DNA of 64,000 nucleotides, taken from assembly GCA_018062765.1 (NCBI GenBank), contig JAGORR010000001.1:78638-142637 (forward strand), written 5' to 3'. Shown here piece by piece: positions 428-46,502 of the stretch. Made by a program: the position numbers and the translations under genes. Below the pieces are notes generated by a model. It worked only from the letters and a program-made list of their open reading frames with translations. It was not told the origin of the DNA and made no database searches. This DNA is from Minisyncoccota bacterium (GTDB taxonomy: Bacteria; Patescibacteriota; Minisyncoccia; Phycocordibacterales; Phycocordibacteraceae). Positions within the stretch are counted from its first letter, which is position 1; each line of letters starts with the position of its first letter.

Positions 428-1447
428 CTATTGGTCTCGGGACGAACGGCACCACTTATCGTCTTCGAAGTAGTTGCAGATCCGTGTGCGCTCTGGAGGA
501 AGAGGATTGAGGTCCATGTCGAGCGCTGAGTCGTGTCCTCCGCCTTGGCAGGAATCGTCTATCCCGTAAGCAAAAAGCGTACTCGGGCAAAGGCCGAATT
601 CGGCAAAGCCGCCGCAGAAGTCTTGCTGCTTTTCCTCGCTCAAGCCGACTTTCGCGTATCCGTACGAGGAGAGCTTACTGCACTCGGAAATGAGCGTCGC
701 ATTCTTTTGGCTATCAGTAACGTTGGATACTCGTATCGTCGGATTATTGTCCTGATAGAAGAATCCGTCGAAATCCATGTAGAGGCCGAAACCGGTCTCG
801 AGCCTGCACACGGCGAGTACCCCGTTTGCAACTACGTGGTGGTCGAACTCGTAATCGCCTTCGGAACATCGCTGGCTCCGGAACTCCTCGAGTTTCGCCG
901 AGAGGCTCGCATCGTCGGATGCAGGGAAGAGTTTCGCTCGTACGTAAACGCCATTAGGAATCAAATCTATCCCCTCAGGAGGAACGGGCGGGCCTTCATC
1001 TGTGCGATCGGAAAAATCAGGCTGCAGCTCCTCAAGACTCCCTTCGCATTCCGCGTTTCCAGTAAGACTCAGCGAGAGAATGCACGGGTTGATGATATTG
1101 AAGACGATGACTGGGGACAGGACCAATACGAGTCCCATGATGGCTACCGTAATGAGGTGGCGCGCCTGGCTCTTTTCCGTGAAGCTGTCCGTAAGCATCC
1201 ACAGAATGCCGCCGCGTACTATCTGCAGCACCGCAAGCACCACCGCAATGCCTATGACGAGCGTGTAGACCGTATTAAGGAACATTGGCAGATTGTCCTG
1301 CTCTTCGGCAAGCGCGCCGAACGGCCCGTCCTTCTCGGTAAGTAGAACGAAATCACCAGCTGCATCCTGTGCGGACGCCGCAAGAGGCAGCATGAAGGCG
1401 CCAAGGGCGAGGAGTGCGCGCGAAAGCATCTTCATAAGGTATCTCAT
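428..1447 (-). CDS. Exported membrane protein with T4SS-pilin-like (VirB2/TrbC-like) topology plus a Cys-rich C-terminal domain of about 220 aa.
   Basis: Signal peptide (MLSRALLALGAFMLPLAASAQDA), then two hydrophobic helices within the first ~120 aa, then about ten Cys. ATGA overlap with the upstream gene. Confidence 0.4.
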   Translation of the reverse strand: MRYLMKMLSRALLALGAFMLPLAASAQDAAGDFVLLTEKDGPFGALAEEQDNLPMFLNTVYTLVIGIAVVLAVLQIVRGGILWMLTDSFTEKSQARHLITVAIMGLVLVLSPVIVFNIINPCILSLSLTGNAECEGSLEELQPDFSDRTDEGPPVPPEGIDLIPNGVYVRAKLFPASDDASLSAKLEEFRSQRCSEGDYEFDHHVVANGVLAVCRLETGFGLYMDFDGFFYQDNNPTIRVSNVTDSQKNATLISECSKLSSYGYAKVGLSEEKQQDFCGGFAEFGLCPSTLFAYGIDDSCQGGGHDSALDMDLNPLPPERTRICNYFEDDKWCRSSRDQ

Positions 1448-17173: not shown

Positions 17174-17236
17174 GACCCGCTCGATACGGCTCGAGCTGGT
17201 GCTATAGTGCGGTCACGTGCGAATTAACTCATCCTT

Positions 17237-17755
17237 ATGAAAGCCATACAGAATATCGCCGCTTACCTCTTTATCGCCGCCGTTGCGGTCCTATCTATCG
17301 TCTCCATACTTGGTGTATGGGAAGTGGTTGAGGACGACATGATCGAGAAGTCGTTCCTTACGATTGGGCTCCTCGGTGTTGTCGCCATCGTGGTCATTGC
17401 TGCAGGCCGCTTTATCGATACAACGCCTATGGACGACATGAACAGTCTCGCGTGGGTTGCCGCGTTCAAATCGATACGGCACGTAACCCTAGGCTCTCTT
17501 ATCGTCTCGGCCGTTCTTCTCGCCTTCCTTGGCGTGCTTGCGATATGGGAAGTCATCGCTGACATGGAGGTCCTTATGCGCTCCATGGGAACGCTCGCCG
17601 TCATCGGCTTCGCGTCCCTCATCATCGTCATGGTCTGTCTTGAGCGTGAGAATCGCTCGGCAAAGCCTGGAGAAGCGGTGCGTATGTCCGCCGGTACCAT
17701 CGTGCTTGGCATCATCGGCGCATTTATTCTGTTCGCATTCCTCTCCGCGCTCTAA
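17237..17755 (+). CDS. Integral membrane protein (4-5 TM), hypothetical.
   Basis: ORF dominated by hydrophobic helices. Confidence 0.45.
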   Translation: MKAIQNIAAYLFIAAVAVLSIVSILGVWEVVEDDMIEKSFLTIGLLGVVAIVVIAAGRFIDTTPMDDMNSLAWVAAFKSIRHVTLGSLIVSAVLLAFLGVLAIWEVIADMEVLMRSMGTLAVIGFASLIIVMVCLERENRSAKPGEAVRMSAGTIVLGIIGAFILFAFLSAL

Positions 17756-27562: not shown

Positions 27563-28450
27563 CTATACTTTCGAGAGCAATACGGTTCCGAGGAGCGCAG
27601 AAAACCGCTGACTGTCGCTGTGTCGGTTGTTCCAATGGAACGAATACGCATCTAGATACCCCTGAAGGTGTCGCTTCGACACCACCTTATACGTCCCCCG
27701 AAGAGAGCGCTTCACGTGCGCCCAATACGCCTCAATAGTGTTTATGTAGATTGGGCCTCGCGCCCATTCTTTCTTTGAGTGATTCACCATGTATCGCTCG
27801 TAGCCTATAGCTACATTGTCTAGGGTCTTAGTAGCGTCAGTCATGAGCGCGGTGCCTTCCTCCTCAACGTTTTCCCGAAGAAACCGGCCGTGGGTATCTG
27901 CGCCTATGTCGGGTACGACCTTGGTGCGTACCTCGCCGTTTCGCTGTACCGCGCCTATAACCGGGGACTTAGCCCTAATGTTCCTGCTCTGGTGCATATT
28001 GTCCTTCCCGCCGTCACCCTTGCCGCCCATATAGGTGCTATCCACCTCGACAACCCCCGACAGCTTCTTGGGAGTCTGTTTCCCGAGGGATTCGCGGATC
28101 AGTTTCAGCATTCGCCACGCCGTCTTATAGGTCACTTCAAGCTGTCGCTCCATCTCCTTAGCTGAAATGCCGCTCTTGGCGTTAGAAAAGACCCACAGGG
28201 CATGGAACCAGAGGGAAAGGGGAGTATCTGACTTATGGAAGATCGTGCCTGCTGTAGGGGCTATCTGGAACCTACACTTGGAGCATTGATACTGTTTCCG
28301 GCCTGAAATGCGCCTGTAGGTACCACCACAGGAGCACTCCCGGCTGTGGAGGGAATCGAAAATGAAGTCCAGACAGACCGCGTCGGTCGGGAAATCACGT
28401 TTTAGGGAAGATAGGCCGTATTTACTCATTATTCTCACTCTATCGGACAT
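27563..28450 (-). mobile_element. IS1595-family (ISXO2-like) DDE transposase gene.
   Basis: N-terminal zinc ribbon (CSCGG...CSKC), HTH and a DDE domain with the typical IS1595 C-terminus. Lower GC. No convincing terminal inverted repeats were located. Confidence 0.75.
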
Positions 28451-28577: not shown

Positions 28578-28973
28578 ATGAATCTCGAGAAGGCCACAAA
28601 GAAGGAAATCGGTGATTATGGTGAAAGGGCCGTCGTCCGAGAGCTCGAGAGGAATGGCTACAGGCTAGTTGGTAGGAATATCGCACGAAAGACAGGAGAA
28701 ATAGACGTGCTAATGCGAAAGAGCGATACCCTCCACTTTATCGAAGTTAAGGCGCTCTCATGTGAGGAGTTGCCGGATCTTGAAGCGGTAAACGATCGCT
28801 ATGACCCCTCTGCAAACCTTCATGAGGCGAAGGTACGAAAAGTCGCCCGGACAGCTGAGTGGATAGTCGCAGAAAAGGAGTGGGAAGGGGATTGGCAGGT
28901 TGATGGCGCCCTAGTATGGCTCCGGCTGCGCGATGGAGTCGCCAAGGTCCTCCATCTGCCGCAAATCGTCTAG
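28578..28973 (+). CDS. yraN: YraN/UPF0102-family predicted endonuclease.
   Basis: GDYGERAVVRELERNGYRLVGRN...GEIDVLMRK...FIEVKA. Confidence 0.7.
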   Translation: MNLEKATKKEIGDYGERAVVRELERNGYRLVGRNIARKTGEIDVLMRKSDTLHFIEVKALSCEELPDLEAVNDRYDPSANLHEAKVRKVARTAEWIVAEKEWEGDWQVDGALVWLRLRDGVAKVLHLPQIV

Positions 28974-29074: not shown

Positions 29075-29148
29075 CGGGCCGTCGTATACCGGTAGTACGC
29101 TTGGTTTGGGACCAAGATGACCGGGTTCGATTCCCGGCGGCCCGACCA
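29075..29148 (+). tRNA. tRNA-Pro (anticodon TGG) with encoded CCA.
   Basis: Acceptor CGGGCCG/CGGCCCG, D-arm GTAT/GTAC, anticodon stem CTTGG/CCAAG, loop TTTGGGA, T-arm CCGGG TTCGATT CCCGG, then ACCA. Flanked by the inverted repeat 29061-29081 / 29138-29158. Confidence 0.85.
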
Positions 29149-30484: not shown

Positions 30485-30485
30485 G

Positions 30486-30556
30486 TGCGGGATAGGAGAA
30501 TCGAACTCCTGCTAGCAGTTTGGAAAACTGCAGTTCTACCATTAAACTAATCCCGC
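30486..30556 (-). tRNA. tRNA-Gly (anticodon TCC), no encoded CCA.
   Basis: The reverse complement folds with acceptor GCGGGAT/ATCCCGC, anticodon stem GCAGT/ACTGC, loop TTTCCAA and T-arm AGGAG TTCGATT CTCCT. Confidence 0.8.
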
Positions 30557-30642
30557 GTTCTTCGCCGCTACGATACCATTTTGACGGCAACCGCGCATCG
30601 GTCCCGGTATCGAGCTGGTCCCCCGTGCGTTATGCTTTCATC

Positions 30643-30915
30643 ATGATTCCTGATCCCCTCCACCACCTAGAGCGCACCACCGAGCGTATGAATGAGTTCA
30701 TGCACGCAAGGCATCATACGGCCTTCAGCAAATACCCACTCCTGTTTGCCTTGCTAGGCGCTTTTGGCGTTGTTGCCGTCATGTATGGGCTCGAGAACAT
30801 GCTCGGCCAGATACGGGTTGTTAAAGAGTATCCGGTACTTTCGTTCCTCGCGGGCGTAGCAATCCTCCTTTTCACTGGGTCGTTGTATAAGCGTATCGAT
30901 AAGAAGCTCGATTAA
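30643..30915 (+). CDS. Small membrane protein (2 TM), hypothetical.
   Basis: The ORF-track start at 30520 (TTG) lies inside the minus-strand tRNA. Start is trimmed to the internal ATG (MIPDPLHH...). Confidence 0.35.
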   Translation: MIPDPLHHLERTTERMNEFMHARHHTAFSKYPLLFALLGAFGVVAVMYGLENMLGQIRVVKEYPVLSFLAGVAILLFTGSLYKRIDKKLD

Positions 30916-30984
30916 CCCCGATTCACTCTTTCTCCATATCTGTGCTATAGAATGCGGTTAGGTATTACCGGCTAGTTTTCTCAT

Positions 30985-32391
30985 ATGACCATCACTTCCA
31001 ACCTCAAAAGGGCGGCAGGCTTTGCGCTCGTCCTCGGGCTCGTGCTCTCCTCTGGTGCCGTCATAGGCGCCAAGGGCGTAGAAGCTGCTTCCTGCTCCTT
31101 TTCCCGAGACCTCTACATAGGCGTCTCGTGGGGAGAGGATGTGCGTTGTCTCCAGGGCACGCTCTCCTCTATGGGCTACTACGTACCCCAGACGGGGACC
31201 TATGGCAATGAGACGGCCATCGCCGTCGCTCGCTGGCAGGCCACCAAGGGTATTAGCCTCGCAAATGGGGTATTTGGCCCTGTCTCCCGTTCCGCTATGG
31301 GTGGCTACTCGGGCACCCCGACCTACCCAGGTACCTCATGGCAGGACAACGACTCAGACGAGGCATACCGAGCCATTTTGGACGCGGTCGCGGCTTACGT
31401 GGACGCCCTGGACGAGTTCCGGGACGCTGAGGACGATAACGACCGCACGGGGGACGCTGAGGACCTTCTTGAGGACGCCCTCGATGAGATACGCGACGCA
31501 CTCCAGTCCTTCATCCGTCATGACTTCGATGACGCGATAGATGCCGCCGAGGAAGCAGAGGACCTCGCAGACGAGGCGATGGACGAAATAGATGGAGATC
31601 GCGATGACGATAACGACAACGACCGCGAAGACGCCGAGGATGCCATCGATGAGGCGTGGGACGCTATCGATGAGGCCGAGGATGAGATAGAGAACGCAGA
31701 CGACCGCGGCGACGATGTCGATGAGGCCGAAGAGCTTCTTGATGACGCCTGGGATGCCATCAATGATGCTGAAGAGGCATACGATGACCGCGATTACGAT
31801 GACGCAGTCGACTACGCGCGGGACGCGGAGGACCTCGCCAAGGACGCAATCGATGCTATCGACGAGGATCGTAACGATTACGACGACGACGATGCAGCCG
31901 ACGCACTCGATGACGCGAACGACGCTATCAATGACGCATGGGACGAAGTTGATGATGCGCGCCGCGATGGCGACGATGTCGACCGCGCCGAGGACCTCCT
32001 TGATGACGCAGAGAACCGTTACGATGATGCGATCGAAGCGTTCGATGATGAGGATTGGGATGATGCGGTCGAGTTTGCGCATGACGCTGAGGACCTCGCG
32101 CATGACGCAGTTGATGCCATCGACGAAGACGACAACGATGGTGATCGGCAAGACGCGATCGACGAAATAAATGATGCGTACGACATAATCCGTGATGCGC
32201 AGGATGAGATTGAGGATGCGGACGACGATGGCGCGGATGTCGACGAGGCGGAGGATCTCTTGCAGGATGCGGTAGACGCATACAACGATGCCGTCGAAGC
32301 GTTTGAAGATCACGACTACGACGATGCTATCGATCTTGCTGAGGAAGCTCAGGATCTTGCCGACGACGCGGTAGACGCAATTGGCTACTAA
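30985..32391 (+). CDS. Exported protein with a PG_binding_1-like domain followed by about 330 aa of hyper-acidic degenerate repeats (D/E/A plus periodic I/L/Y/W).
   Basis: Signal peptide. DLYIGVSWGEDVRCLQGTL...WQATKGISLANGVFGP matches the peptidoglycan-binding fold consensus. The rest is about 45% Asp+Glu in about 50-aa repeat units. Confidence 0.7.
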   Translation: MTITSNLKRAAGFALVLGLVLSSGAVIGAKGVEAASCSFSRDLYIGVSWGEDVRCLQGTLSSMGYYVPQTGTYGNETAIAVARWQATKGISLANGVFGPVSRSAMGGYSGTPTYPGTSWQDNDSDEAYRAILDAVAAYVDALDEFRDAEDDNDRTGDAEDLLEDALDEIRDALQSFIRHDFDDAIDAAEEAEDLADEAMDEIDGDRDDDNDNDREDAEDAIDEAWDAIDEAEDEIENADDRGDDVDEAEELLDDAWDAINDAEEAYDDRDYDDAVDYARDAEDLAKDAIDAIDEDRNDYDDDDAADALDDANDAINDAWDEVDDARRDGDDVDRAEDLLDDAENRYDDAIEAFDDEDWDDAVEFAHDAEDLAHDAVDAIDEDDNDGDRQDAIDEINDAYDIIRDAQDEIEDADDDGADVDEAEDLLQDAVDAYNDAVEAFEDHDYDDAIDLAEEAQDLADDAVDAIGY

Positions 32392-32404
32392 TTAGTTTCT
32401 TCTA

Positions 32405-32447
32405 GAGAAAATCCGCAGCCGTCGAGGCTGCGGATTTTCTCTTTATG
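32405..32447 (+). terminator. Rho-independent terminator between the two acidic-repeat genes.
   Basis: 16-bp stem GAGAAAATCCGCAGCC/GGCTGCGGATTTTCTC followed by a T-run. Confidence 0.6.
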
Positions 32448-32512
32448 CGCACATCATTAGCTCATAAGGTGCGTGCTATCGTTTACGCATTACTCAAAAA
32501 GCATCGTTTCGT

Positions 32513-33679
32513 ATGAAAACGTCACGCCTGTCACGCTTATCCGCCGCTGCACTTCTCGCACTCTCGCTTGCCGTCGCGAGTTTCGCACCGCTCGCTGCAT
32601 CCGCAGCAGCGTGCTCACTTACTCGCGACCTGTATCTCGGTGATACTGGCGAGGATGTGCGCTGCTTGCAGCGGTACTTGAACGGCGCGGGCTTTACCGT
32701 ATCGTCGAGCGGTGTTGGTTCTCCCGGGTCGGAGACGAATCAGTACCAGTTGAAGACAGTCGATGCGGTGAAGAAGTGGCAGACGGCGAACGGAATTAGT
32801 CCAGCGACCGGAGGATTCGGTCCGTTGTCGCGCGCGAAGTATGCGGCGCTTGCGGGCGGCAGCGTGACTATGCCGACACCTTCGACACCTTCCACTGGCG
32901 CCGTGACCGCAGCAAGCGTATCCGCTTTGACTGCGATAAACGAGGCGCGTGAAGCGTACGAAGATGCGCGGGATGCCGTAGCGGATGATGGAAGCGATGA
33001 CGCCGATGACTATCTCGATACCGCGCGAGAGAATTTACTCAACGCGCTCTACGCATACATCGCGGGAAACTATCCATCAGCTGAGTCGCGTGCTGATACT
33101 TCGACCAGTGCTTCCAAAAACGCGCTCGATGAAGTTGGTGGCGACGAAGATGAAGATGAGGACGAAGATCATGACACCGATGAGGAGGGGGCAGACGACG
33201 CGATAGAGGAAGCTAAGCAGGCGATACGTGACGCCGATGACGCGATTGAAGAGGCGCAGGATGAGGGTGACGACACTGAGGACGCAGAAGATTTGATTGA
33301 GGATGCACGAGAGAAACTCGACGAAGCAGAGGAAGCATTCGACGATGAGGAGTGGGATGACGCGATAGAAGCTGCGGAAGAAGCGAAAGACCTTGCGGAT
33401 GAATCCTATGAGGAGGCAGGAGGAGAGGATGCTGACGCGGAGGAAGCGGCGGACGATGCAATCGATGCTGCAGTGCACGCTATTAACGTCGCGTGGAACG
33501 CTATAGAGGAAGCGGATGACGACGGTGATGATACGGAAGAGGCAGAGGACATCGTAAACGAAGCGGAGGCACGGCTCGATGACGCCCGGGATGAGTTCGA
33601 GGACGAGGATTGGGATGAAGCAATCGAGTCCGCAGAGGAGGCCGAGGAGCTTGCAGAAGAGGCTGAAAACGCGCTCTAG
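32513..33679 (+). CDS. Paralogous exported PG_binding_1-like protein with a Glu/Asp-rich acidic repeat region.
   Basis: Signal peptide. DLYLGDTGEDVRCLQRYL...WQTANGISPATGGFGP, then DDAIEEA.../WDDAIEAAEEA repeats. Confidence 0.7.
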   Translation: MKTSRLSRLSAAALLALSLAVASFAPLAASAAACSLTRDLYLGDTGEDVRCLQRYLNGAGFTVSSSGVGSPGSETNQYQLKTVDAVKKWQTANGISPATGGFGPLSRAKYAALAGGSVTMPTPSTPSTGAVTAASVSALTAINEAREAYEDARDAVADDGSDDADDYLDTARENLLNALYAYIAGNYPSAESRADTSTSASKNALDEVGGDEDEDEDEDHDTDEEGADDAIEEAKQAIRDADDAIEEAQDEGDDTEDAEDLIEDAREKLDEAEEAFDDEEWDDAIEAAEEAKDLADESYEEAGGEDADAEEAADDAIDAAVHAINVAWNAIEEADDDGDDTEEAEDIVNEAEARLDDARDEFEDEDWDEAIESAEEAEELAEEAENAL

Positions 33680-33696: not shown

Positions 33697-33734
33697 AACA
33701 AGCCGCGACTCAAAGAGAGTCGCGGCTTGTTTCG
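33697..33734 (+). terminator. Rho-independent terminator (13-bp stem CAAGCCGCGACTC/GAGTCGCGGCTTG).
   Basis: Hairpin plus TTTCGC. Confidence 0.55.
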
Positions 33735-33818: not shown

Positions 33819-34937
33819 ATGCCAAGAACACGTACGAAACGTCTCGCGGCGCACCAGCGGCTCCGGTACGGGGAGAACCCGCACACCAAGAACGCGGAGC
33901 ACCTCGTCATCCTTCCTGAGAAGAAGGATCTCTTTGCGGCACATCGCTTCGAGCAGATTCTCGGTCGGATTCCAAGTTATGGGAATGTCGCTGGTCTCGA
34001 TGAGGTGGTGCGGACGATGACTCGCATCGCCGCTTGCTACGCAGTGAACTTTGGCAGAAGCAAACGCCGGCGCATTACCGTGGTTCAGAAGCACGGCATC
34101 ACGTGTGGTGCGGCCGTTCGCACGATTCCGCTTCGTGCGCCGCCGCGTAAGCGAGCCGAGGTCACGCTCGAGTCGGCGCGGATGGCAATCGCGGGTGATC
34201 CGGAGAGTGCGCACGGCGGCGTCGTCGGAGCGAATTACGTCATCGACGGTGTTGTCGCAAGTGCGCTCCGAAGTCACCTCAATGATTCCAACATGCCTCT
34301 GCGTCCCTTCGACGTCGTCGTTGCCGCAGGGTTTACCAAGGAAGCGGTTCGTATCCTCAATCGAGCGAAAGAGGCGCGTTGCATACTGCTCGTGAATCCT
34401 GCACTCGAACGCATGGGCAAGGGGTCGATGGAGCGCGGGGTACGTTATCGTTTTGTGCGCGGTGGTCTTCTCACTGAAAATGTTGAGACGCCGATACCGG
34501 TCATCGAGGAGGATGGTGGCGCGGTTTACCGTATCTGGGGAAACAAGGATCCTAAGAAGCAGGGAACCGATTACGTGAAGCTCCATCAGGCGAACCTCGC
34601 CCTCGCGTGGGCCGTAGGCGCGGCTCCCGCGAATGCGATTGCGATAACCGGTGACGAAATGCTTCTTGCACTTGCGGCTGGTGATCAGAATCGCAAACGT
34701 GCGGCCTTGCGCGCCAAGCAGATGATCTTTTCGGTGACCGAATTCCTCGCTCCAAAAGCTGCGTACAGCAACGGATTCTTTGGATTTGTGGACGCGCCGC
34801 GTGTCCTCGCGTACGGCATCGACGTCATCATGGTTCCCGCGGGATCCATGCGCGACCAAGAAATCGGGATGGAGCTCGCCGACAGAACGGTGCTCATGCA
34901 GATTCCGCGTGAGTGGCGAAGCTTCGCGAAAGAGTGA
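33819..34937 (+). CDS. Stand-alone AICAR transformylase (PurH C-terminal, AICARFT) domain protein with no IMP cyclohydrolase/MGS domain.
   Basis: LRYGENPH, VVQKHGITCGAA, DPESAHGGVV, NAIAITGDEM and VPAGSMRDQEI align with the conserved blocks of the PurH formyltransferase domain. AAGGAGG Shine-Dalgarno 7 nt upstream. Confidence 0.6.
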   Translation: MPRTRTKRLAAHQRLRYGENPHTKNAEHLVILPEKKDLFAAHRFEQILGRIPSYGNVAGLDEVVRTMTRIAACYAVNFGRSKRRRITVVQKHGITCGAAVRTIPLRAPPRKRAEVTLESARMAIAGDPESAHGGVVGANYVIDGVVASALRSHLNDSNMPLRPFDVVVAAGFTKEAVRILNRAKEARCILLVNPALERMGKGSMERGVRYRFVRGGLLTENVETPIPVIEEDGGAVYRIWGNKDPKKQGTDYVKLHQANLALAWAVGAAPANAIAITGDEMLLALAAGDQNRKRAALRAKQMIFSVTEFLAPKAAYSNGFFGFVDAPRVLAYGIDVIMVPAGSMRDQEIGMELADRTVLMQIPREWRSFAKE

Positions 34938-42353: not shown

Positions 42354-43331
42354 TTAGGCGAATGCCCAGTCACCATTGATCGTGGTCGCTTCTGCAGCGA
42401 ACACCAAAGGCGGGGGCGGAACCCACTCGACGCCAGGAGCCAGATAGATGTGGCCGACGTTCGCCCCGTTCTCGATCGTCAACGACTTGGACGAGATTAC
42501 GAGGTCGTGTCCGACCATCGTGATTTCGCTGTTGTCGAGGCCGAGCGAGGTCAGGACAAGCGAGTCGTGGACGTTCGCATCGGAGAGCACGGTAGTGCCG
42601 TTGCCGAACCGGGCGTCGAAGACGTCCGAGCCCGAGCCGCCGTGCATGGTGTCGTTGCCGCCACCGCGCAGGACGTCGCGTCCGTCGCCGCCAACGAGGA
42701 AGTCGCCCACCCCGTCTTCGACACCGTTCGACTGGAAACCACGGACGTCGTCGTTGCCGTCGCCGCCGTGGACCGTGTCGGCTCCGTTGCCGCCGAACAG
42801 TGTGTCGTTGCCGTCCTCGCCGTAGAGCGAGTCGTCACCGTTGTTGCCGTTCAGCGTGTCGCTGTCAGCACCGCCCCAGGCGCGATCGCGCGCCGACGAA
42901 CCGCTGACCCAGTCGTTGCCGGCGCCGCCGAAAAACTGGTCGAGGCCGGTACCGCCGAACATCTTGTCGTGGCCGTCGCCGCCGATGAACATGTTGTCCC
43001 CGGTCGAGCCGCGAGCGTAGAGGTAGTCGTCGCCTTGTACGCCGAGCAGCCAGTTGTCGCCGCTCCCGTTGACCCTGACCTCGTCGTTGCCTTCGCCGCC
43101 GACCAGCTGGTCGTTCCCGGAGGCAGAGATCAGCTGGTCGTTCCCGGAGTGGCCCTCTAGGTGGTCGTCGCCCTGGGTGCCGATGAGGGTGTCGTTGCCG
43201 GCACCTGCAAGGATGGCGAGGCCGTGATCCGTAAACGCGCGGAAGTCCATGCGATTCGGGTCGTGGTCGCCCCACCTGGTGGTGGCGTCAGTGGCGAAGT
43301 AGGTCGGCATCACGGGTTCTGCACGGTTCAT
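42354..43331 (-). CDS. RTX-type (hemolysin-type Ca-binding GGxGxD nonapeptide repeat) protein.
   Basis: More than 15 tandem GxxGxDxL/F-type nonapeptides (GGEGNDEV, GGDGHDKMFGG, GGAGNDWVSG...). No N-terminal signal peptide. Non-repeat C-terminal region of about 90 aa. Confidence 0.7.
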   Translation of the reverse strand: MNRAEPVMPTYFATDATTRWGDHDPNRMDFRAFTDHGLAILAGAGNDTLIGTQGDDHLEGHSGNDQLISASGNDQLVGGEGNDEVRVNGSGDNWLLGVQGDDYLYARGSTGDNMFIGGDGHDKMFGGTGLDQFFGGAGNDWVSGSSARDRAWGGADSDTLNGNNGDDSLYGEDGNDTLFGGNGADTVHGGDGNDDVRGFQSNGVEDGVGDFLVGGDGRDVLRGGGNDTMHGGSGSDVFDARFGNGTTVLSDANVHDSLVLTSLGLDNSEITMVGHDLVISSKSLTIENGANVGHIYLAPGVEWVPPPPLVFAAEATTINGDWAFA

Positions 43332-43477: not shown

Positions 43478-45283
43478 TTGTTTTTATGTTCTCTGTTCTC
43501 TCTACTCGGTCAGCTATACTTATATATAGTCATGCAGGTCTCGGAGAGCGAACTTAAGGAATTCATCACGGATTCGGGACTGGTGTCCCGGAAGGATGTC
43601 GACGCTGCAGAAGTAACTGCCAAAGAGCGTAAGCAGTCGGTGGGCGACATCCTGGTGGGTTCAGGCGCGCTTACCTCGGATGCGCTCCGTCGCATCAAGG
43701 CATACGTGCTTGGTATACCGTTTGTGAACCTCAAGGATAAGAAGATAGACGTTGCCGTGCTCTCTCTTATCCCGGAGCCAATCGCACGTACGCACTCCAT
43801 CATTGCGTACCAGAAAAAAGGGACTGAACTTGAGGTCGCGATGCTCGATACGGAAGACCTGCCCGCAATAGACTCGGTCAGGAAGAAGACAGGCCTCAAG
43901 ATACAGGCGCGTCTTACTGATGACGAGTCCGTAAAGCATGCCTTGCTGCAGTACCAGAAGTCCTTGAAGGAGGAGTTTGGTGACTTGATTGCAACTGAAG
44001 CAGGGAAGCTCACGGTCGTTAAGGAATCGTCTGATAAAGAGGCGTCGGGAGAGGAGCTTAAGAAGTTGGCGGAGGATCTGCCTATCGTGCGCATCGTCGA
44101 CACCTTGTTGCGGCACGCCATCATCCAGAAAGCATCTGACATACATATAGAGCCAGGAGAACAGGAAGTCATGGTGCGCTACCGCATCGACGGCTCACTC
44201 CATGACGCGATGACGCTGCCGCGCCAGGCTGCGGCCGGCATTACTGCCCGCATCAAGGTTCTCGCTAACCTGAAGCTCGATGAGAAACGTCTGCCGCAGG
44301 ACGGACGTTTCAAGATGGAGACGGAGAGCGACAAGGTTTCGTTCCGTGTTTCTTTGCTCCCTACCTACTTCGGCGAGAAGGTCGTGATGCGACTTTTGCG
44401 CGAGAGCGGCGACGGATTCACGCTAGAAGGACTTGGCTTTCATGGCGACTCCCTGGAGCGCATTCATAAAGCAACGAAGCAAGCGAACGGACTCATTTTG
44501 ATTTCTGGACCTACGGGCTCAGGTAAAACGACAACGCTTTATACGGTGCTCGATATTCTGAATACGCCGGACGTGAACATCAGTACGATAGAAGACCCCA
44601 TCGAGTACCAGATGAAGCGCGTAAATCAGACACAGGTGAATCCGGCGATAGGATTCTCATTCGCAAACGGACTACGCGCACTCGTTCGACAGGACCCAGA
44701 TGTCATCATGGTCGGAGAAATTCGAGACGGCGAGACAGCCGCGCTTGCGGTGAATGCTGCGCTTACCGGACACTTAGTGCTTTCAACCATCCACACGAAC
44801 AGCGCCGCGGGAGCGATACCGAGGCTTGTCGACATGGGCGTCGAGCCATTTCTTCTCGTCTCGACGTTGAAGGTTATCGTCGGTCAGCGCCTCGTACGTC
44901 GCCTGTGCGACGACAAGGAGGAATACAAATCTACCCAGGCTGAGCGCGATAAGGTTGCGGGCGTCGATAAGTTTGATGCGGCTCTCAAGGCGCTTTTGGA
45001 CGAGAAGCTCGTTAAGCCAAAGACGGATATCGACGACGTTCCGTTTTATCACCCGAAGGCGGGCGGGGAGTGCGAGGAGGGGTACGCAGGCCGCATGGGC
45101 ATACACGAAGTCCTTTCTATGAGTTCTACGATAAAGGATCTCATCATAAAGGGTGCGACCTCCGACGCTATAGAGGCGCAAGCCAGGAAGGAAGGCATGC
45201 TCACCATGCTTGAGGACGGTATTTATAAGGCATCGCGCGGGATTACGAGCCTTGAGGAAGTGCTTGGCGCGGTGACGGAATAA
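43478..45283 (+). CDS. pilB: Type IV pilus / type II secretion assembly ATPase (PilB/GspE family).
   Basis: GspE N-terminal domain, Walker A GPTGSGKTTTL, Asp and His boxes and the C-terminal tetracysteine. Confidence 0.85.
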   Translation: MFLCSLFSLLGQLYLYIVMQVSESELKEFITDSGLVSRKDVDAAEVTAKERKQSVGDILVGSGALTSDALRRIKAYVLGIPFVNLKDKKIDVAVLSLIPEPIARTHSIIAYQKKGTELEVAMLDTEDLPAIDSVRKKTGLKIQARLTDDESVKHALLQYQKSLKEEFGDLIATEAGKLTVVKESSDKEASGEELKKLAEDLPIVRIVDTLLRHAIIQKASDIHIEPGEQEVMVRYRIDGSLHDAMTLPRQAAAGITARIKVLANLKLDEKRLPQDGRFKMETESDKVSFRVSLLPTYFGEKVVMRLLRESGDGFTLEGLGFHGDSLERIHKATKQANGLILISGPTGSGKTTTLYTVLDILNTPDVNISTIEDPIEYQMKRVNQTQVNPAIGFSFANGLRALVRQDPDVIMVGEIRDGETAALAVNAALTGHLVLSTIHTNSAAGAIPRLVDMGVEPFLLVSTLKVIVGQRLVRRLCDDKEEYKSTQAERDKVAGVDKFDAALKALLDEKLVKPKTDIDDVPFYHPKAGGECEEGYAGRMGIHEVLSMSSTIKDLIIKGATSDAIEAQARKEGMLTMLEDGIYKASRGITSLEEVLGAVTE

Positions 45284-45284
45284 T

Positions 45285-46502
45285 ATGAGATTCAAAGCGA
45301 CTTTTAAAAAGGAAGACGGGAGTGAAGAAACGCGCGTCGTCGAAGCCGAGAACCGGTTCTCGGTCTATCAGGAGGCCGAGAAGACAGGAGAGACCGTGAC
45401 TGCGATAGAGGAAGCAGGGCGCGGATGGAACTTCAAGGCACTTGCGAGCCTCACTATCGGCAAGGGAATCAAAGTCGAGGAGCATATTACCTTCGTCAAA
45501 AACCTTGCGGCCATGCTCTCAGCAGGGCTTAACCTCAACCGTGCGCTCTCTGTTATTGAGCGACAGACTTCCAATAAGGTGCTGAAGCGCATCGTCACCG
45601 AGCTCCAGACCGCAGTGAAGGGCGGTATGTCATTTCACGAAGCGCTTGCGCAGCATCCGAAGATATTCTCGAAGCTTGAAATCGCGATGTCGAAGGCAGG
45701 AGAGGAGTCTGGAACGCTCGCCGAGTCTCTGCGCGTGGTCGCAAAGCAGATGGACCGCGCGCACACCCTTATGAAGAAGGTGAAGGGTGCGATGATTTAC
45801 CCGGGCATCATCCTGTTTGCCATCATCGTTATCGGTATTCTTATGATGGTGTACGTGGTGCCTACTCTCGCGTCGACCTTCACGGAGCTCGGTGTTGAAC
45901 TCCCGACATCGACCAAGATTATCCTCGCGGTCTCGGATTTCATGGTTAACAACATCGTACTTGTCATTGCGTCGGTACTGCTTCTTATGGGTCTCATCGT
46001 TTACGCCCTACGCTCTCCCGCTGGAGCCGCGGTCGCGCTTCGCGGCTCGTTATATATCCCGGTCGTATCGACCATCGTAAAGGAGACATTCAGTGCGCGC
46101 GCGGCGCGCACCCTCTCCTCGCTCCTCTCTTCCGGAGTCGAGATGCTAACCGCCATCTCCATCACGCGTGAAGTCGTCGGAAATCGCATTTTCGGCAAGC
46201 CTATAGAAGAGGCAGAGGAGCTCGTCCGGAAAGGTGAGCCGCTCTCTGCTTCATTTGCTAAGTACCCAAAGCTCTATCCAGTCCTGTTCACCGATATGAT
46301 CGCGGTGGGGGAGGAGACGGGTAAGGTCGCCGATATGCTCGGACAGGTCGCGGAATACTACGAAACAGACGTTGAGGATAAGACGAAGGACCTCTCGACT
46401 GTCATAGAGCCGGTGTTGATGCTTATTATTGGCGCGGCAGTGGGCGTGTTTGCCTTTTCAATGATTGGACCGATATATTCCCTCACCTCCCAAATCGGTT
46501 AA
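45285..46502 (+). CDS. pilC: Type IV pilus platform protein (PilC/GspF family).
   Basis: Duplicated GspF domain with 3 TM. Start 2 nt after the pilB stop. Confidence 0.8.
   Translation: MRFKATFKKEDGSEETRVVEAENRFSVYQEAEKTGETVTAIEEAGRGWNFKALASLTIGKGIKVEEHITFVKNLAAMLSAGLNLNRALSVIERQTSNKVLKRIVTELQTAVKGGMSFHEALAQHPKIFSKLEIAMSKAGEESGTLAESLRVVAKQMDRAHTLMKKVKGAMIYPGIILFAIIVIGILMMVYVVPTLASTFTELGVELPTSTKIILAVSDFMVNNIVLVIASVLLLMGLIVYALRSPAGAAVALRGSLYIPVVSTIVKETFSARAARTLSSLLSSGVEMLTAISITREVVGNRIFGKPIEEAEELVRKGEPLSASFAKYPKLYPVLFTDMIAVGEETGKVADMLGQVAEYYETDVEDKTKDLSTVIEPVLMLIIGAAVGVFAFSMIGPIYSLTSQIG

What the first reader, a model, noticed from the sequence alone, without database searches (positions are those of the whole stretch)
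30985..33679. Tandem paralogous exported proteins: peptidoglycan-binding domain fused to a hyper-acidic repeat region
Both proteins have a signal peptide and a PG_binding_1-like domain. They then carry 250-330 aa that are about 45% Asp+Glu, arranged in repeats of about 50 aa with hydrophobic residues (I/L/Y/W/A) at helical periodicity. One paralog is Asp-dominated, the other Glu-dominated. This would place a poly-anionic, probably helical, cation-binding domain in the cell wall. Possible roles are a teichoic-acid-like charge layer, metal or Ca storage, or host-surface interaction. No obvious characterised family.
Basis: partly seen in the sequence, partly recalled or inferred. Interest (0 to 1): 0.6.

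Follow-up and report, generated by a model that had tools for sequence, protein, structure and literature searches.

The report
Wall-anchored, extremely acidic helical rod proteins
Two neighbouring genes of an ultra-small (Patescibacteria) bacterium encode secreted proteins that most likely dock onto the cell wall and carry three or four extremely negatively charged three-helix bundles, a widespread family that has no described function and may give these cells a protein-based charged wall layer.

Summary
The core observation is real. ORF A (30985..32391, 468 aa) and ORF B (32513..33679, 388 aa) each have a signal-peptide-like N-terminus, a PG_binding_1 domain and a C-terminal region of 42-46% Asp+Glu (net charge -141 and -95).

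Two details are wrong. The repeat is 86-87 aa, not about 50 aa. B has equal Asp and Glu and is not Glu-dominated.

This is a family, not a curiosity. It gave 347 sequence hits and 198 loci in species-representative genomes, all labelled Patescibacteria. Members have 2-4 modules and no conserved gene neighbour. B is the canonical member and A is a divergent four-module paralogue. Tandem copies are rare (1 of 80 other loci).

No paper describing the family was found. My best reading is inferred, not shown: a rod non-covalently anchored to peptidoglycan that acts as a fixed polyanion, probably folding only with counter-ions, in a role like that of teichoic acids.

Novelty: new variant of a known kind. 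Interest is moderate.

The parts
30942..30953 (+). Possible extended -10-like element (GTGCTATAGAAT) 36 nt upstream of the ATG of gene A
   Evidence: Read from the sequence. The same heptamer GTGCTAT sits 33 nt upstream of gene B's ATG. The consensus promoter scan found nothing, and the heptamer count in the window equals the chance expectation (6 found, 4.8 expected). This is a lead only.
30985..32391 (+). Gene A: 468-aa secreted protein with a PG-binding domain and four supercharged three-helix modules. It is the divergent, Asp-rich paralogue.
   Evidence: ORF. Identical in three assemblies. 347 homologues, best E 1e-65. AF2 with MSA gives mean pLDDT 85.5. Its PG-binding domain is at most 51% identical to any homologue.
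30985..31086 (+). Gene A signal peptide, residues 1-34 (K8, R9, hydrophobic run 10-29, V-E-A site). Cleavage by signal peptidase I is predicted.
   Evidence: Rough proxies only, with no SignalP. The Kyte-Doolittle maximum is 2.44, K/R precede the hydrophobic run, and there is no Leu at -3 of the Cys, so it is not a lipobox. 97% of 122 family members share the pattern.
31093..31305 (+). Gene A PG_binding_1 domain (residues 37-107), including the invariant C37 and C55
31345..31605 (+). Gene A module 1 (residues 121-207), net charge -30
   Evidence: Period-87 self-similarity. Module alignment. AF2 helices 122-150, 158-177 and 181-202.
31606..31866 (+). Gene A module 2 (residues 208-294), net charge -39
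   Evidence: helices 209-240, 246-267, 271-294.
31867..32127 (+). Gene A module 3 (residues 295-381), net charge -36
   Evidence: helices 301-327, 333-354, and 358 onward, which runs continuously into module 4.
32128..32388 (+). Gene A module 4 (residues 382-468), net charge -36. Its H1-H2 loop is DADDDG. It holds the best DUF4398 match.
   Evidence: Pfam DUF4398 at residues 402-460, 27.9 bits, equal to the gathering score..
32404..32442 (+). Intrinsic-terminator-like hairpin after gene A (17-bp stem, U-rich 3' side)
   Evidence: RNA fold -31.8 kcal/mol, z = -6.9 against shuffles. Sequence. It was missed by the simple scan.
32473..32479 (+). GTGCTAT, a possible extended -10-like element 33 nt upstream of the ATG of gene B
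   Evidence: Not statistically enriched. A lead only.
32513..33679 (+). Gene B: 388-aa secreted protein with a PG-binding domain and three three-helix modules. It is the canonical family member.
   Evidence: ORF. Its PG-binding domain is 70-76% identical to homologues in other genomes, and the full length is 45-50% identical.
32513..32605 (+). Gene B signal peptide, residues 1-31 (K2, R5, R8, hydrophobic run, A-S-A site)
   Evidence: proxies only.
32612..32848 (+). Gene B PG_binding_1 domain (residues 34-112), carrying the family-typical SG-x-GSPG-x-ET insertion. It is followed by a Pro/Thr/Ser linker (113-130).
   Evidence: Pfam PF01471 E 5.4e-9, 36.6 bits. Family consensus.
32903..33160 (+). 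Gene B module 1 (residues 131-216), the least acidic module, net charge -18
   Evidence: First modules are less acidic across the family, with median net charge -18 against -36 for later modules.
33161..33418 (+). Gene B module 2 (residues 217-302), net charge -40
   Evidence: DUF4398 at residues 237-315, 20.9 bits.
33419..33676 (+). Gene B module 3 (residues 303-388), net charge -37
33697..33731 (+). Intrinsic-terminator-like hairpin after gene B (15-bp stem)
   Evidence: RNA fold -32.7 kcal/mol, z = -7.1.

Best explanation
SHOWN OR STRONGLY SUPPORTED
- A and B are two separately terminated genes.
- Each encodes a Sec-type exported protein: a signal peptide, then a PG_binding_1 domain with two invariant cysteines, a short flexible linker, and a C-terminal chain of four (A) or three (B) 86-87-residue three-helix bundles of the DUF4398 fold.
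- The buried a/d heptad positions of the bundles are Ala, Ile or Leu. Almost every exposed position is Asp or Glu.
- Lys and Arg are nearly absent. Each module carries a net charge of -30 to -40.

INFERRED MECHANISM
- After export, the N-terminal domain docks non-covalently on peptidoglycan.
- The modules project as a roughly 11-15 nm semi-rigid rod carrying a very high fixed negative charge.
- The surface appears to be selected for charge and not for shape. I therefore think the protein acts as a non-specific wall polyanion. It would concentrate Mg2+/Ca2+ and protons, set wall charge and spacing, and repel anionic surfaces and molecules. This makes it a protein analogue of wall teichoic acids.
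- The charge density is that of an intrinsically disordered protein. The bundles probably fold or stiffen only when counter-ions (divalent cations, high ionic strength or low pH) neutralise them, which would make the layer ion-responsive.
For: ARCHITECTURE
- Pfam PG_binding_1 lies above the cut-off in both proteins.
- Signal-peptide proxies hold in 97% of 122 family members, and there is no lipobox.
- C37 and C55 are invariant.

MODULES
- The period is 87/86 aa plus a heptad signal.
- AF2 gives pLDDT above 90 over most of the helical region and three helices per module. This holds both with a single sequence and with a 64-sequence alignment.
- DUF4398 is hit by 30 of 59 modules.

CHARGE IS THE SELECTED TRAIT
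- In 304 family modules the core columns are Ala/Ile/Leu. The other columns are 50-90% D/E, and K/R are close to zero.
- The D/E ratio ranges from 0.83 to 3.6 between homologues while total acidity stays at 26-48%.
- Related modules in Bathyarchaeota surface-like proteins are not acidic.

COUNTER-ION DEPENDENCE
- 97% of modules lie about 0.17 below the Uversky folded/unfolded boundary.

STAND-ALONE STRUCTURAL GENE
- No neighbour is conserved across 80 loci.
- In two lineages the gene sits between rplB and rpsS in the ribosomal-protein cluster, which suggests strong constitutive expression.
- The only fusion seen is to an SGNH/GDSL hydrolase, a domain type I recall from wall-modifying enzymes (my own knowledge).
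- The same window encodes an RTX Ca2+-dependent repeat protein, so extracellular Ca2+ is relevant to this organism.
Against: - Nothing here measures binding to peptidoglycan or to cations, and nothing shows abundance at the surface.
- A canonical Ca2+ site is not conserved. The strict DxDxDG motif occurs in 35 of 304 modules against 15 expected by shuffling, and in only 1 of 7 modules in the window. The loop is one residue longer than an EF-hand loop.
- I could not check whether this genome lacks teichoic-acid synthesis. One paper suggests rhamnose wall polysaccharides in some Patescibacteria (PMC11809585).
- AF2 does not model electrostatics. The inter-module geometry is uncertain (pTM 0.35), and only one of three junctions is predicted as a continuous helix.
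- The family was found in about 200 species-representative genomes using one strict motif, so it is not shown to be universal in the phylum.
Confidence: 0.45

Rival explanations
1. Electrostatic adhesin or docking scaffold. The acidic rods bind a basic partner, such as a host-cell surface (these bacteria are thought to be episymbionts), the organism's own S-layer, or a secreted enzyme. They would hold that partner at a set distance from the wall.
For: - One relative is fused to an SGNH hydrolase.
- Paralogue A has a fast-diverged N-domain and an extra module, as might be expected for diversification.
Against: - No exposed position is conserved apart from generic D/E, and D and E interchange freely. 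A shape-specific binding site is therefore not visible.
- No partner gene is conserved nearby.
- The architecture is very uniform across distant lineages that presumably have different hosts.
Confidence: 0.25
2. Passive spacer or anti-fouling brush. The modules are only a structural ruler. Acidity serves to keep the rods soluble, extended and unstuck from the anionic wall and from each other, and has no role in ion handling.
For: The structural evidence is the same as for the main explanation. The variable module number of 2-4 looks like length tuning.
Against: A charge of -0.4 per residue is far beyond what solubility requires and should destabilise the fold. Such an extreme is more easily explained if the charge itself is the function. 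This reading overlaps largely with the main explanation.
Confidence: 0.15
3. Specific, high-affinity Ca2+ sensor or store that uses EF-hand-like DxDxDG loops between helices 1 and 2.
For: The family consensus for the loop is I-[ED]-[DE]-A-D-D-D-G-x-D-[VTI]-D-x-A-E, which contains DxDxDG. Module A4 reads DADDDG.
Against: - The strict motif is present in only 35 of 304 modules (15 expected by chance) and in 1 of 7 modules in the window.
- The hydrophobic residue and the final Glu are displaced by one position relative to the EF-hand loop.
- No EF-hand family is among the Pfam families matched at E<=0.01.
Confidence: 0.08
4. Not a folded domain at all. The region is a low-complexity, intrinsically disordered acidic tail, or a nucleic-acid mimic, whose apparent repeats are compositional.
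For: The charge-hydropathy plot predicts disorder. The best PDB sequence matches are designed helical repeats, which is a composition-driven result.
Against: - Exact 86-87-aa register is kept across hundreds of homologues, with a conserved Gly in loop 1, a conserved aromatic in loop 2 and a conserved Ala/Ile/Leu core.
- AF2 pLDDT is above 90.
- The protein has a signal peptide and a wall-binding domain, which argues against the cytoplasmic location that I recall for known DNA mimics (my own knowledge).
Confidence: 0.05

Closest known systems
DUF4398 (Pfam PF14346), e.g. P. aeruginosa PA2901 (PDB 4fm3) and Leptospira LipL71/LruA (DUF4398 + LysM)
   Different: - Here there are tandem arrays of 2-4 modules, against a single small 13-kDa protein for PA2901.
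- Here the surfaces are 40-55% Asp/Glu.
- The partner is PG_binding_1, not LysM.
- The family is restricted to Patescibacteria-labelled genomes.
- DUF4398 itself has no known function, so membership explains little.
PG_binding_1 (PF01471) wall-targeting domains of SleB, SleC, CtpB, phage endolysins and L,D-transpeptidases
   Same: Same fold and sequence family. It is the N-terminal targeting module of an exported protein.
   Different: In those proteins the domain targets an enzyme. Here no catalytic domain is attached, except in one distant relative that carries an SGNH hydrolase. The cargo is a charged helical rod.
Rod-like tandem three-helix-bundle wall proteins of Gram-positives (S. aureus Ebh FIVAR-GA repeats; spectrin-like repeats of SbsC and EzrA)
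   Same: All are chains of three-helix bundles in or at the cell envelope. One junction here is predicted as a continuous helix, as in spectrin-type rods. There are weak profile matches to Ebh (6gv8, E 1.4e-4), SbsC_spectrin-like and FIVAR.
   Different: There is no convincing sequence homology. These proteins are much shorter than Ebh, are not membrane-anchored, and are supercharged. My statements about Ebh and SbsC function come from my own knowledge and were not tested here.
Wall teichoic acids (functional analogue, not a protein family)
   Same: Both are a wall-attached, extended polyanion that would bind Mg2+/Ca2+ and protons and set surface charge.
   Different: Teichoic acids are phosphodiester polymers covalently linked to peptidoglycan. 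This is a gene-encoded carboxylate polyanion attached non-covalently. The equivalence is an inference only.
High-capacity acidic cation-binding or cation-folded proteins (calsequestrin, RTX repeats, halophilic proteins)
   Same: Both have very high Asp/Glu content and expected counter-ion-dependent compaction or folding.
   Different: The fold is different and there is no homology. The comparison rests on my own knowledge. No EF-hand match was found, and no RTX match in A or B.
Trypanosome GARP (glutamic acid/alanine-rich surface protein)
   Different: GARP is eukaryotic and has a different anchor (from my own knowledge). It is a single elongated bundle, not tandem modules, and there is no credible homology.

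Membership tests
PG_binding_1 (PF01471) | Sequence match above Pfam's gathering score | tested here: met
   A scores 34.9 bits and B 36.6 bits against a cut-off of 23.
PG_binding_1 (PF01471) | Small helical PG-binding fold as in solved members | tested here: met
PG_binding_1 (PF01471) | Actual binding to peptidoglycan | not testable with these tools
   This needs a pull-down with purified sacculi.
DUF4398 (PF14346) | Sequence match at or above the gathering score (27.9 bits) | tested here: inconclusive
   A scores 27.9 bits, exactly at the cut-off. B scores 20.9 bits, below it. 30 of 59 family modules hit at E<=0.01, best 1.5e-7. Most homologues carry a precomputed PF14346 hit.
DUF4398 (PF14346) | Fold of the solved member (PA2901, PDB 4fm3) | tested here: met
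EF-hand / DxDxDG calcium-binding loop | Conserved D-x-[DNS]-x-[DNS]-G-x-[ILV]-x-x-x-E loop | tested here: not met
   Strict DxDxDG occurs in 35 of 304 modules (15 expected by shuffle) and in 1 of 7 modules in the window. The hydrophobic residue and the Glu are displaced by one position. No EF-hand family is among the Pfam families matched at E<=0.01.
HEPN (PF05168) | Match above the gathering score and the R-x(4-6)-H motif | tested here: not met
   Scores are 17.2 and 17.7 bits against a cut-off of 22. No R-x4-6-H motif occurs in A or B. The protein is exported.
S-layer homology (SLH) or other known wall-binding repeats in the acidic region | Pfam match in the acidic region | tested here: not met
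   No such family is among those matched at E<=0.01 for A, B or the family modules. No NCBIfam model reaches its cut-off.
Spectrin-like / FIVAR-GA rod proteins (e.g. Ebh) | Tandem three-helix bundles joined by continuous helices, plus sequence homology | tested here: inconclusive
   AF2 predicts one of three junctions as a continuous helix (358-414), with pTM 0.35. Only weak matches were found: 6gv8 at E 1.4e-4 over 45 residues, and FIVAR in 1 of 59 modules.
DNA-mimic proteins (Ocr/ArdA-like) | Cytoplasmic acidic protein that imitates DNA | tested here: not met
   The signal peptide and wall-binding domain argue for export. No sequence or fold match was found.
Bacterial lipoproteins | Lipobox L-[AS]-[GA]-C at the end of the signal peptide | tested here: not met
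   The residue at -3 of the conserved Cys is Ala in 67 of 111 members and never predominantly Leu. The Cys lies 1-4 residues after an A-x-A site.

The most novel reading that the evidence does not exclude
Some Patescibacteria may have replaced, or supplemented, anionic wall glycopolymers with a gene-encoded polyanion. This would be peptidoglycan-docked rods of supercharged three-helix bundles that fold and stiffen only when loaded with divalent cations. Wall charge, thickness and cation supply would then be set by a single, highly expressed protein. This would be a new solution to the 'charged wall' problem in bacteria with minimal biosynthetic capacity. It would also be a natural example of a folded domain at about -0.4 charges per residue.
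Probability: 0.3. Interest if true: 0.75.

Novelty: new variant of a known kind. Interest (0 to 1): 0.5.

Why it matters
Patescibacteria are a very large part of bacterial diversity, yet almost nothing is known about their envelope beyond the presence of peptidoglycan and, in some species, S-layers.

This family has several notable properties:
- It is widespread in the Paceibacteria/Parcubacteria-type lineages.
- It has no described function.
- It is probably highly expressed in some lineages, where it is embedded among ribosomal protein genes.
- It has one of the highest charge densities I know of for a domain predicted to be folded.

If it acts as a protein polyanion in the wall, it would explain how cells with minimal biosynthesis obtain the cation-buffering and surface-charge functions that teichoic acids give to Gram-positives. 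It would also offer a simple recombinant system (about 87-aa modules) for studying ion-dependent folding of supercharged helical bundles.

If it is only a spacer, it is still a useful marker protein for the envelope of these uncultured organisms.

Tried and rejected
- **Profile search with a 59-module alignment against the 5.8-billion-protein set.** It returned nothing at E<=1e-3. The module is too short and biased for that database size, and one capped search was wasted.
- **AFDB50 fold library.** It was unavailable.
- **PDB sequence searches with the protein, one module and the module profile.** They found only designed proteins and consensus TPRs, which are composition-driven matches.
- **Gene-neighbourhood analysis of 80 loci.** It found no conserved partner. 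The most frequent 'neighbours' were spurious antisense ORFs inside the acidic genes.
- **Viral contig scan.** No relatives were found.
- **NCBIfam.** No model reached its cut-off.
- **Literature searches** (DUF4398; Patescibacteria with peptidoglycan-binding and acidic; teichoic acid; Minisyncoccus). No description of this family turned up.
- **Tandem-repeat finder.** It saw no 261-nt array, so recent slippage is rejected.
- **Readings rejected:** frameshift or assembly artefact, lipoprotein, HEPN nuclease, canonical EF-hand, SLH, and cytoplasmic DNA mimic.
Full report
**1. What is in the sequence**

The window has two same-strand ORFs at exactly the reported coordinates: A = 30985..32391 (468 aa) and B = 32513..33679 (388 aa). 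Each is followed by a strong hairpin. After A the stem has 17 bp (32404..32442, -31.8 kcal/mol, z -6.9). After B the stem has 15 bp (33697..33731, -32.7 kcal/mol, z -7.1). They therefore look like two separate transcription units.

The consensus promoter scan found nothing. By eye, GTGCTAT lies 36 nt upstream of A's start codon and 33 nt upstream of B's. That heptamer is no more frequent in the window than chance predicts, so it is only a lead.

The locus is 100% identical at DNA level in three independent assemblies: NCBI MAG GCA_017991435.1 and two Logan assemblies, over 9-18.6 kb. A frameshift or assembly artefact is therefore excluded.

**2. Check of the observation**

- Both proteins hit Pfam PG_binding_1 above the gathering score (34.9 and 36.6 bits against 23).
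- Both begin with K/R, a hydrophobic run and an A-x-A-like site.
- The C-terminal regions are 45.7% (A, 348 aa) and 42% (B, 253 aa) Asp+Glu, with about 5% Lys+Arg. Net charge is -141 and -95.
- The median ORF in the window has 12% D+E and pI 6.0, so these two proteins are extreme outliers and not a proteome-wide trait.

- The repeat period is 87 aa in A (48% self-identity at that shift) and 86 aa in B, with a superimposed heptad signal. It is not about 50 aa.
- A is Asp-dominated (D:E 2.8), but B has equal Asp and Glu (0.98).

A has four modules (121-207, 208-294, 295-381, 382-468). B has three (131-216, 217-302, 303-388). Each carries a net charge of -30 to -40, except B's first module at -18.

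Modules A2-A4 are 59-64% identical in protein and 64-67% in DNA, with synonymous codons randomised. Tandem Repeats Finder sees no 261-nt array. The duplications are therefore old and maintained by selection.

**3. Structure**

AlphaFold2 predicts three helices per module, even from a single sequence (pLDDT above 90 for 178 residues). With a 64-sequence alignment it gives a mean pLDDT of 85.5, and the PG-binding domain also becomes confident. One inter-module junction (358-414) is predicted as a continuous helix. The other two are short, lower-confidence breaks, and pTM is 0.35. The overall rod geometry is therefore plausible but uncertain.

Foldseek confirms the N-domain (TM 0.85 to 6tci) but finds only designed helical repeats for the rest.

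At sequence level, DUF4398 is hit at 27.9 bits in A, exactly the gathering score, and at 20.9 bits in B. It is hit by 30 of 59 family modules, best E 1.5e-7. HEPN hits are sub-threshold and the R-x4-6-H motif is absent.

**4. The family**

- A search of 5.8 billion proteins returned 347 hits, best E 1e-65 at 33-49% identity. Nearly all carry PF01471 plus PF14346. Where named, they are called 'peptidoglycan-binding protein' from Patescibacteria, Paceibacterota, Kaiserbacteria or Minisyncoccia.
- An exhaustive HMMER scan of 1.84 billion cluster representatives gave 332 hits at E<=1e-10.
- A scan of GTDB species representatives using one strict motif found 198 loci. All 80 listed are labelled as Patescibacteria lineages.
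- No relatives were found in viral contigs.

Among 122 members, the module number is 2 (66 proteins), 3 (52) or 4 (4). D+E in the post-domain region is 26-48% (median 38%). The D/E ratio is 0.83-3.6.

The family module consensus is .DEddAedAIdDA.DAIdDAeDeIdDAdDDG.DvddAEDLLdDAeD.LdDAedAFDDeDYDeA.DLAedAeDLAeDA.DeI. The core positions are Ala/Ile/Leu. There is a conserved Gly in loop 1 and a conserved aromatic in loop 2. Asp/Glu occupy essentially every other position, and K/R are nearly absent. First modules are less acidic than later ones (median net charge -18 against -36).

Two cysteines (C37 and C55 in A) are invariant, and 101 of 122 proteins have exactly two Cys. This suggests a disulfide, in keeping with an extracytoplasmic location. 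The disulfide is inferred.

B is the canonical member, with an N-domain 70-76% identical to homologues elsewhere. A is a diverged paralogue, with an N-domain at most 51% identical to anything. The positional orthologue in the closest syntenic genome (P0003, L004) is a single gene. Only 1 of 80 other loci has tandem copies (L073, three in a row). The tandem pair is therefore a lineage-specific duplication.

**5. Context**

All-against-all clustering of ORFs from 80 loci shows no conserved neighbour. In close relatives the flanking genes are housekeeping genes: a trypsin-like protease, HU, RNase Y and the CCA-adding enzyme.

In a Kaiserbacteria genome and in another lineage, the gene sits between rplB and rpsS in the ribosomal-protein cluster, in the same orientation. 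This hints at strong constitutive expression.

The only domain fusion seen is P0121 (977 aa). It carries a GDSL/SGNH hydrolase between acidic modules.

More distant relatives, one of them labelled Bathyarchaeota, have 5-6 copies of the same module with ordinary, non-acidic surfaces. They also have many N-x-S/T sequons and a C-terminal transmembrane anchor. The module is therefore a generic extracellular helical repeat, and hyper-acidity is the derived, Patescibacteria-specific trait.

**6. Mechanism**

Shown: export signals, a wall-binding fold, tandem DUF4398-like three-helix bundles, and surfaces selected for negative charge but not for a particular shape.

Inferred: the N-domain docks on peptidoglycan. 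The modules form a rod of about 11-15 nm, taking about 22-29-residue helices at 1.5 A per residue and three or four modules (one search gives the helix lengths). That rod acts as a fixed polyanion.

The preference for Asp, a poor helix former, in many members fits selection for carboxylate density over helix stability. This argument rests on my own knowledge.

A specific EF-hand-like site is not supported. The loop consensus contains DxDxDG, but the strict motif occurs in only 35 of 304 modules (15 expected by chance) and in 1 of 7 modules in the window. Its register also differs from the EF-hand loop.

The window also encodes an RTX Ca2+-binding repeat protein next to type IV pilus genes. Extracellular Ca2+ therefore matters to this organism, but this is only circumstantial.

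I commit to 'wall-anchored, ion-responsive polyanionic rod, functionally analogous to teichoic acids' at about 0.45. The rivals are:

- electrostatic adhesin or docking scaffold (0.25);
- passive spacer or brush (0.15);
- specific Ca2+ sensor (0.08);
- disordered tail or DNA mimic (0.05).

**7. Comparison with known systems, and novelty**

Membership of PG_binding_1 is met by both sequence and fold. Membership of DUF4398 is met by fold and is borderline by sequence. DUF4398 has no known function. The three papers that mention it only list it as an annotation. One of them shows Leptospira LipL71 as DUF4398 + LysM, so pairing this module with a peptidoglycan-binding domain recurs in another phylum.

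The protein works like the tandem three-helix-bundle rods of Gram-positive envelopes and, in charge terms, like teichoic acids. It is not a member of those families.

No paper describing this Patescibacteria family or its extreme acidity was found. One paper speculates that some Patescibacteria use rhamnose polysaccharides in place of teichoic acids (PMC11809585). I could not test whether this genome lacks teichoic-acid genes.

**Verdict.** The feature is real. It is a new variant of a known kind: a PG-anchored DUF4398-type repeat protein in tandem, supercharged form. Interest is moderate, at 0.5. It would be higher if the protein-polyanion reading were confirmed.

Noticed in passing
window 42354..43331 (-), with 43478..45283 (+) and 45285..46502 (+): A 325-aa acidic protein (pI 4.06) made of RTX calcium-binding nonapeptide repeats (HemolysinCabind, E 6e-37). 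It lies next to type IV pilus genes: a PilB-like T2SSE ATPase and a PilC-like T2SSF. This is an extracellular Ca2+-dependent protein in the same organism.
   Followed up: partly
L005 6001..7518 and L006 6001..7188: In a Kaiserbacteria genome and in another Patescibacteria lineage, the family gene lies between rplB (L2) and rpsS (S19) in the ribosomal-protein cluster, in the same orientation. A few opposite-strand genes lie between it and rpsS.
   Followed up: partly
L073 3125..8829 (JAKLEX010000001.1): Three family genes lie in tandem. The third (P0121, 977 aa) inserts a GDSL/SGNH hydrolase domain and a beta-rich region between acidic modules. It is the only enzymatic fusion seen.
   Followed up: partly
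proteins P0133, P0166, P0213: These are relatives with 5-6 copies of the same three-helix module but ordinary, non-acidic surfaces. They have many N-x-S/T sequons, a beta-rich C-terminal domain and a C-terminal transmembrane helix. P0166 is labelled Candidatus Bathyarchaeota. They look like archaeal surface proteins.
   Followed up: partly
window 30485..30556 (-) and 30520..30915 (+): A tRNA-Gly(tcc) overlaps the mechanically listed TTG start of the upstream small ORF. Public gene calls start that ORF later, giving a 90-96-aa protein that has no Pfam match on record and no NCBIfam match.
   Followed up: partly
window 27563..28450 (-), 28578..28973 (+), 29075..29148 (+): An IS1595-family transposase (DDE_Tnp_IS1595, E 2.4e-29) lies beside a UPF0102/YraN-like nuclease gene and a tRNA-Pro, about 2.5 kb upstream of the finding. 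No IS1595-family gene is called in the part of the syntenic region of the closest relative that was retrieved (L004).
   Followed up: no
window 33819..34937 (+): A 372-aa PurH-like protein matches only positions 70-308 of the AICARFT_IMPCHas profile. It may be a shortened or single-activity form.
   Followed up: no
window 31354..32313 (-) and other long ORFs overlapping genes A and B: A 319-aa Ile/Val-rich antisense ORF and several +1/+2-frame ORFs are by-products of the GAY/GAR-rich coding strand. The same spurious antisense ORFs recur in up to 29 of 80 related loci and could be mis-called as genes.
   Followed up: yes
window 30942..30948, 32473..32479, 17199..17205: GTGCTAT occurs 31-36 nt upstream of the start codons of gene A, gene B and the ORF at 17237. 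It may be an extended -10-like promoter element in this organism. The overall count in the window equals the chance expectation.
   Followed up: partly
window 428..1447 (-): A 339-aa acidic protein has a weak type IV secretion pilin match (T4SS_pilin, 25.2 bits, just below the cut-off of 26.6).
   Followed up: no
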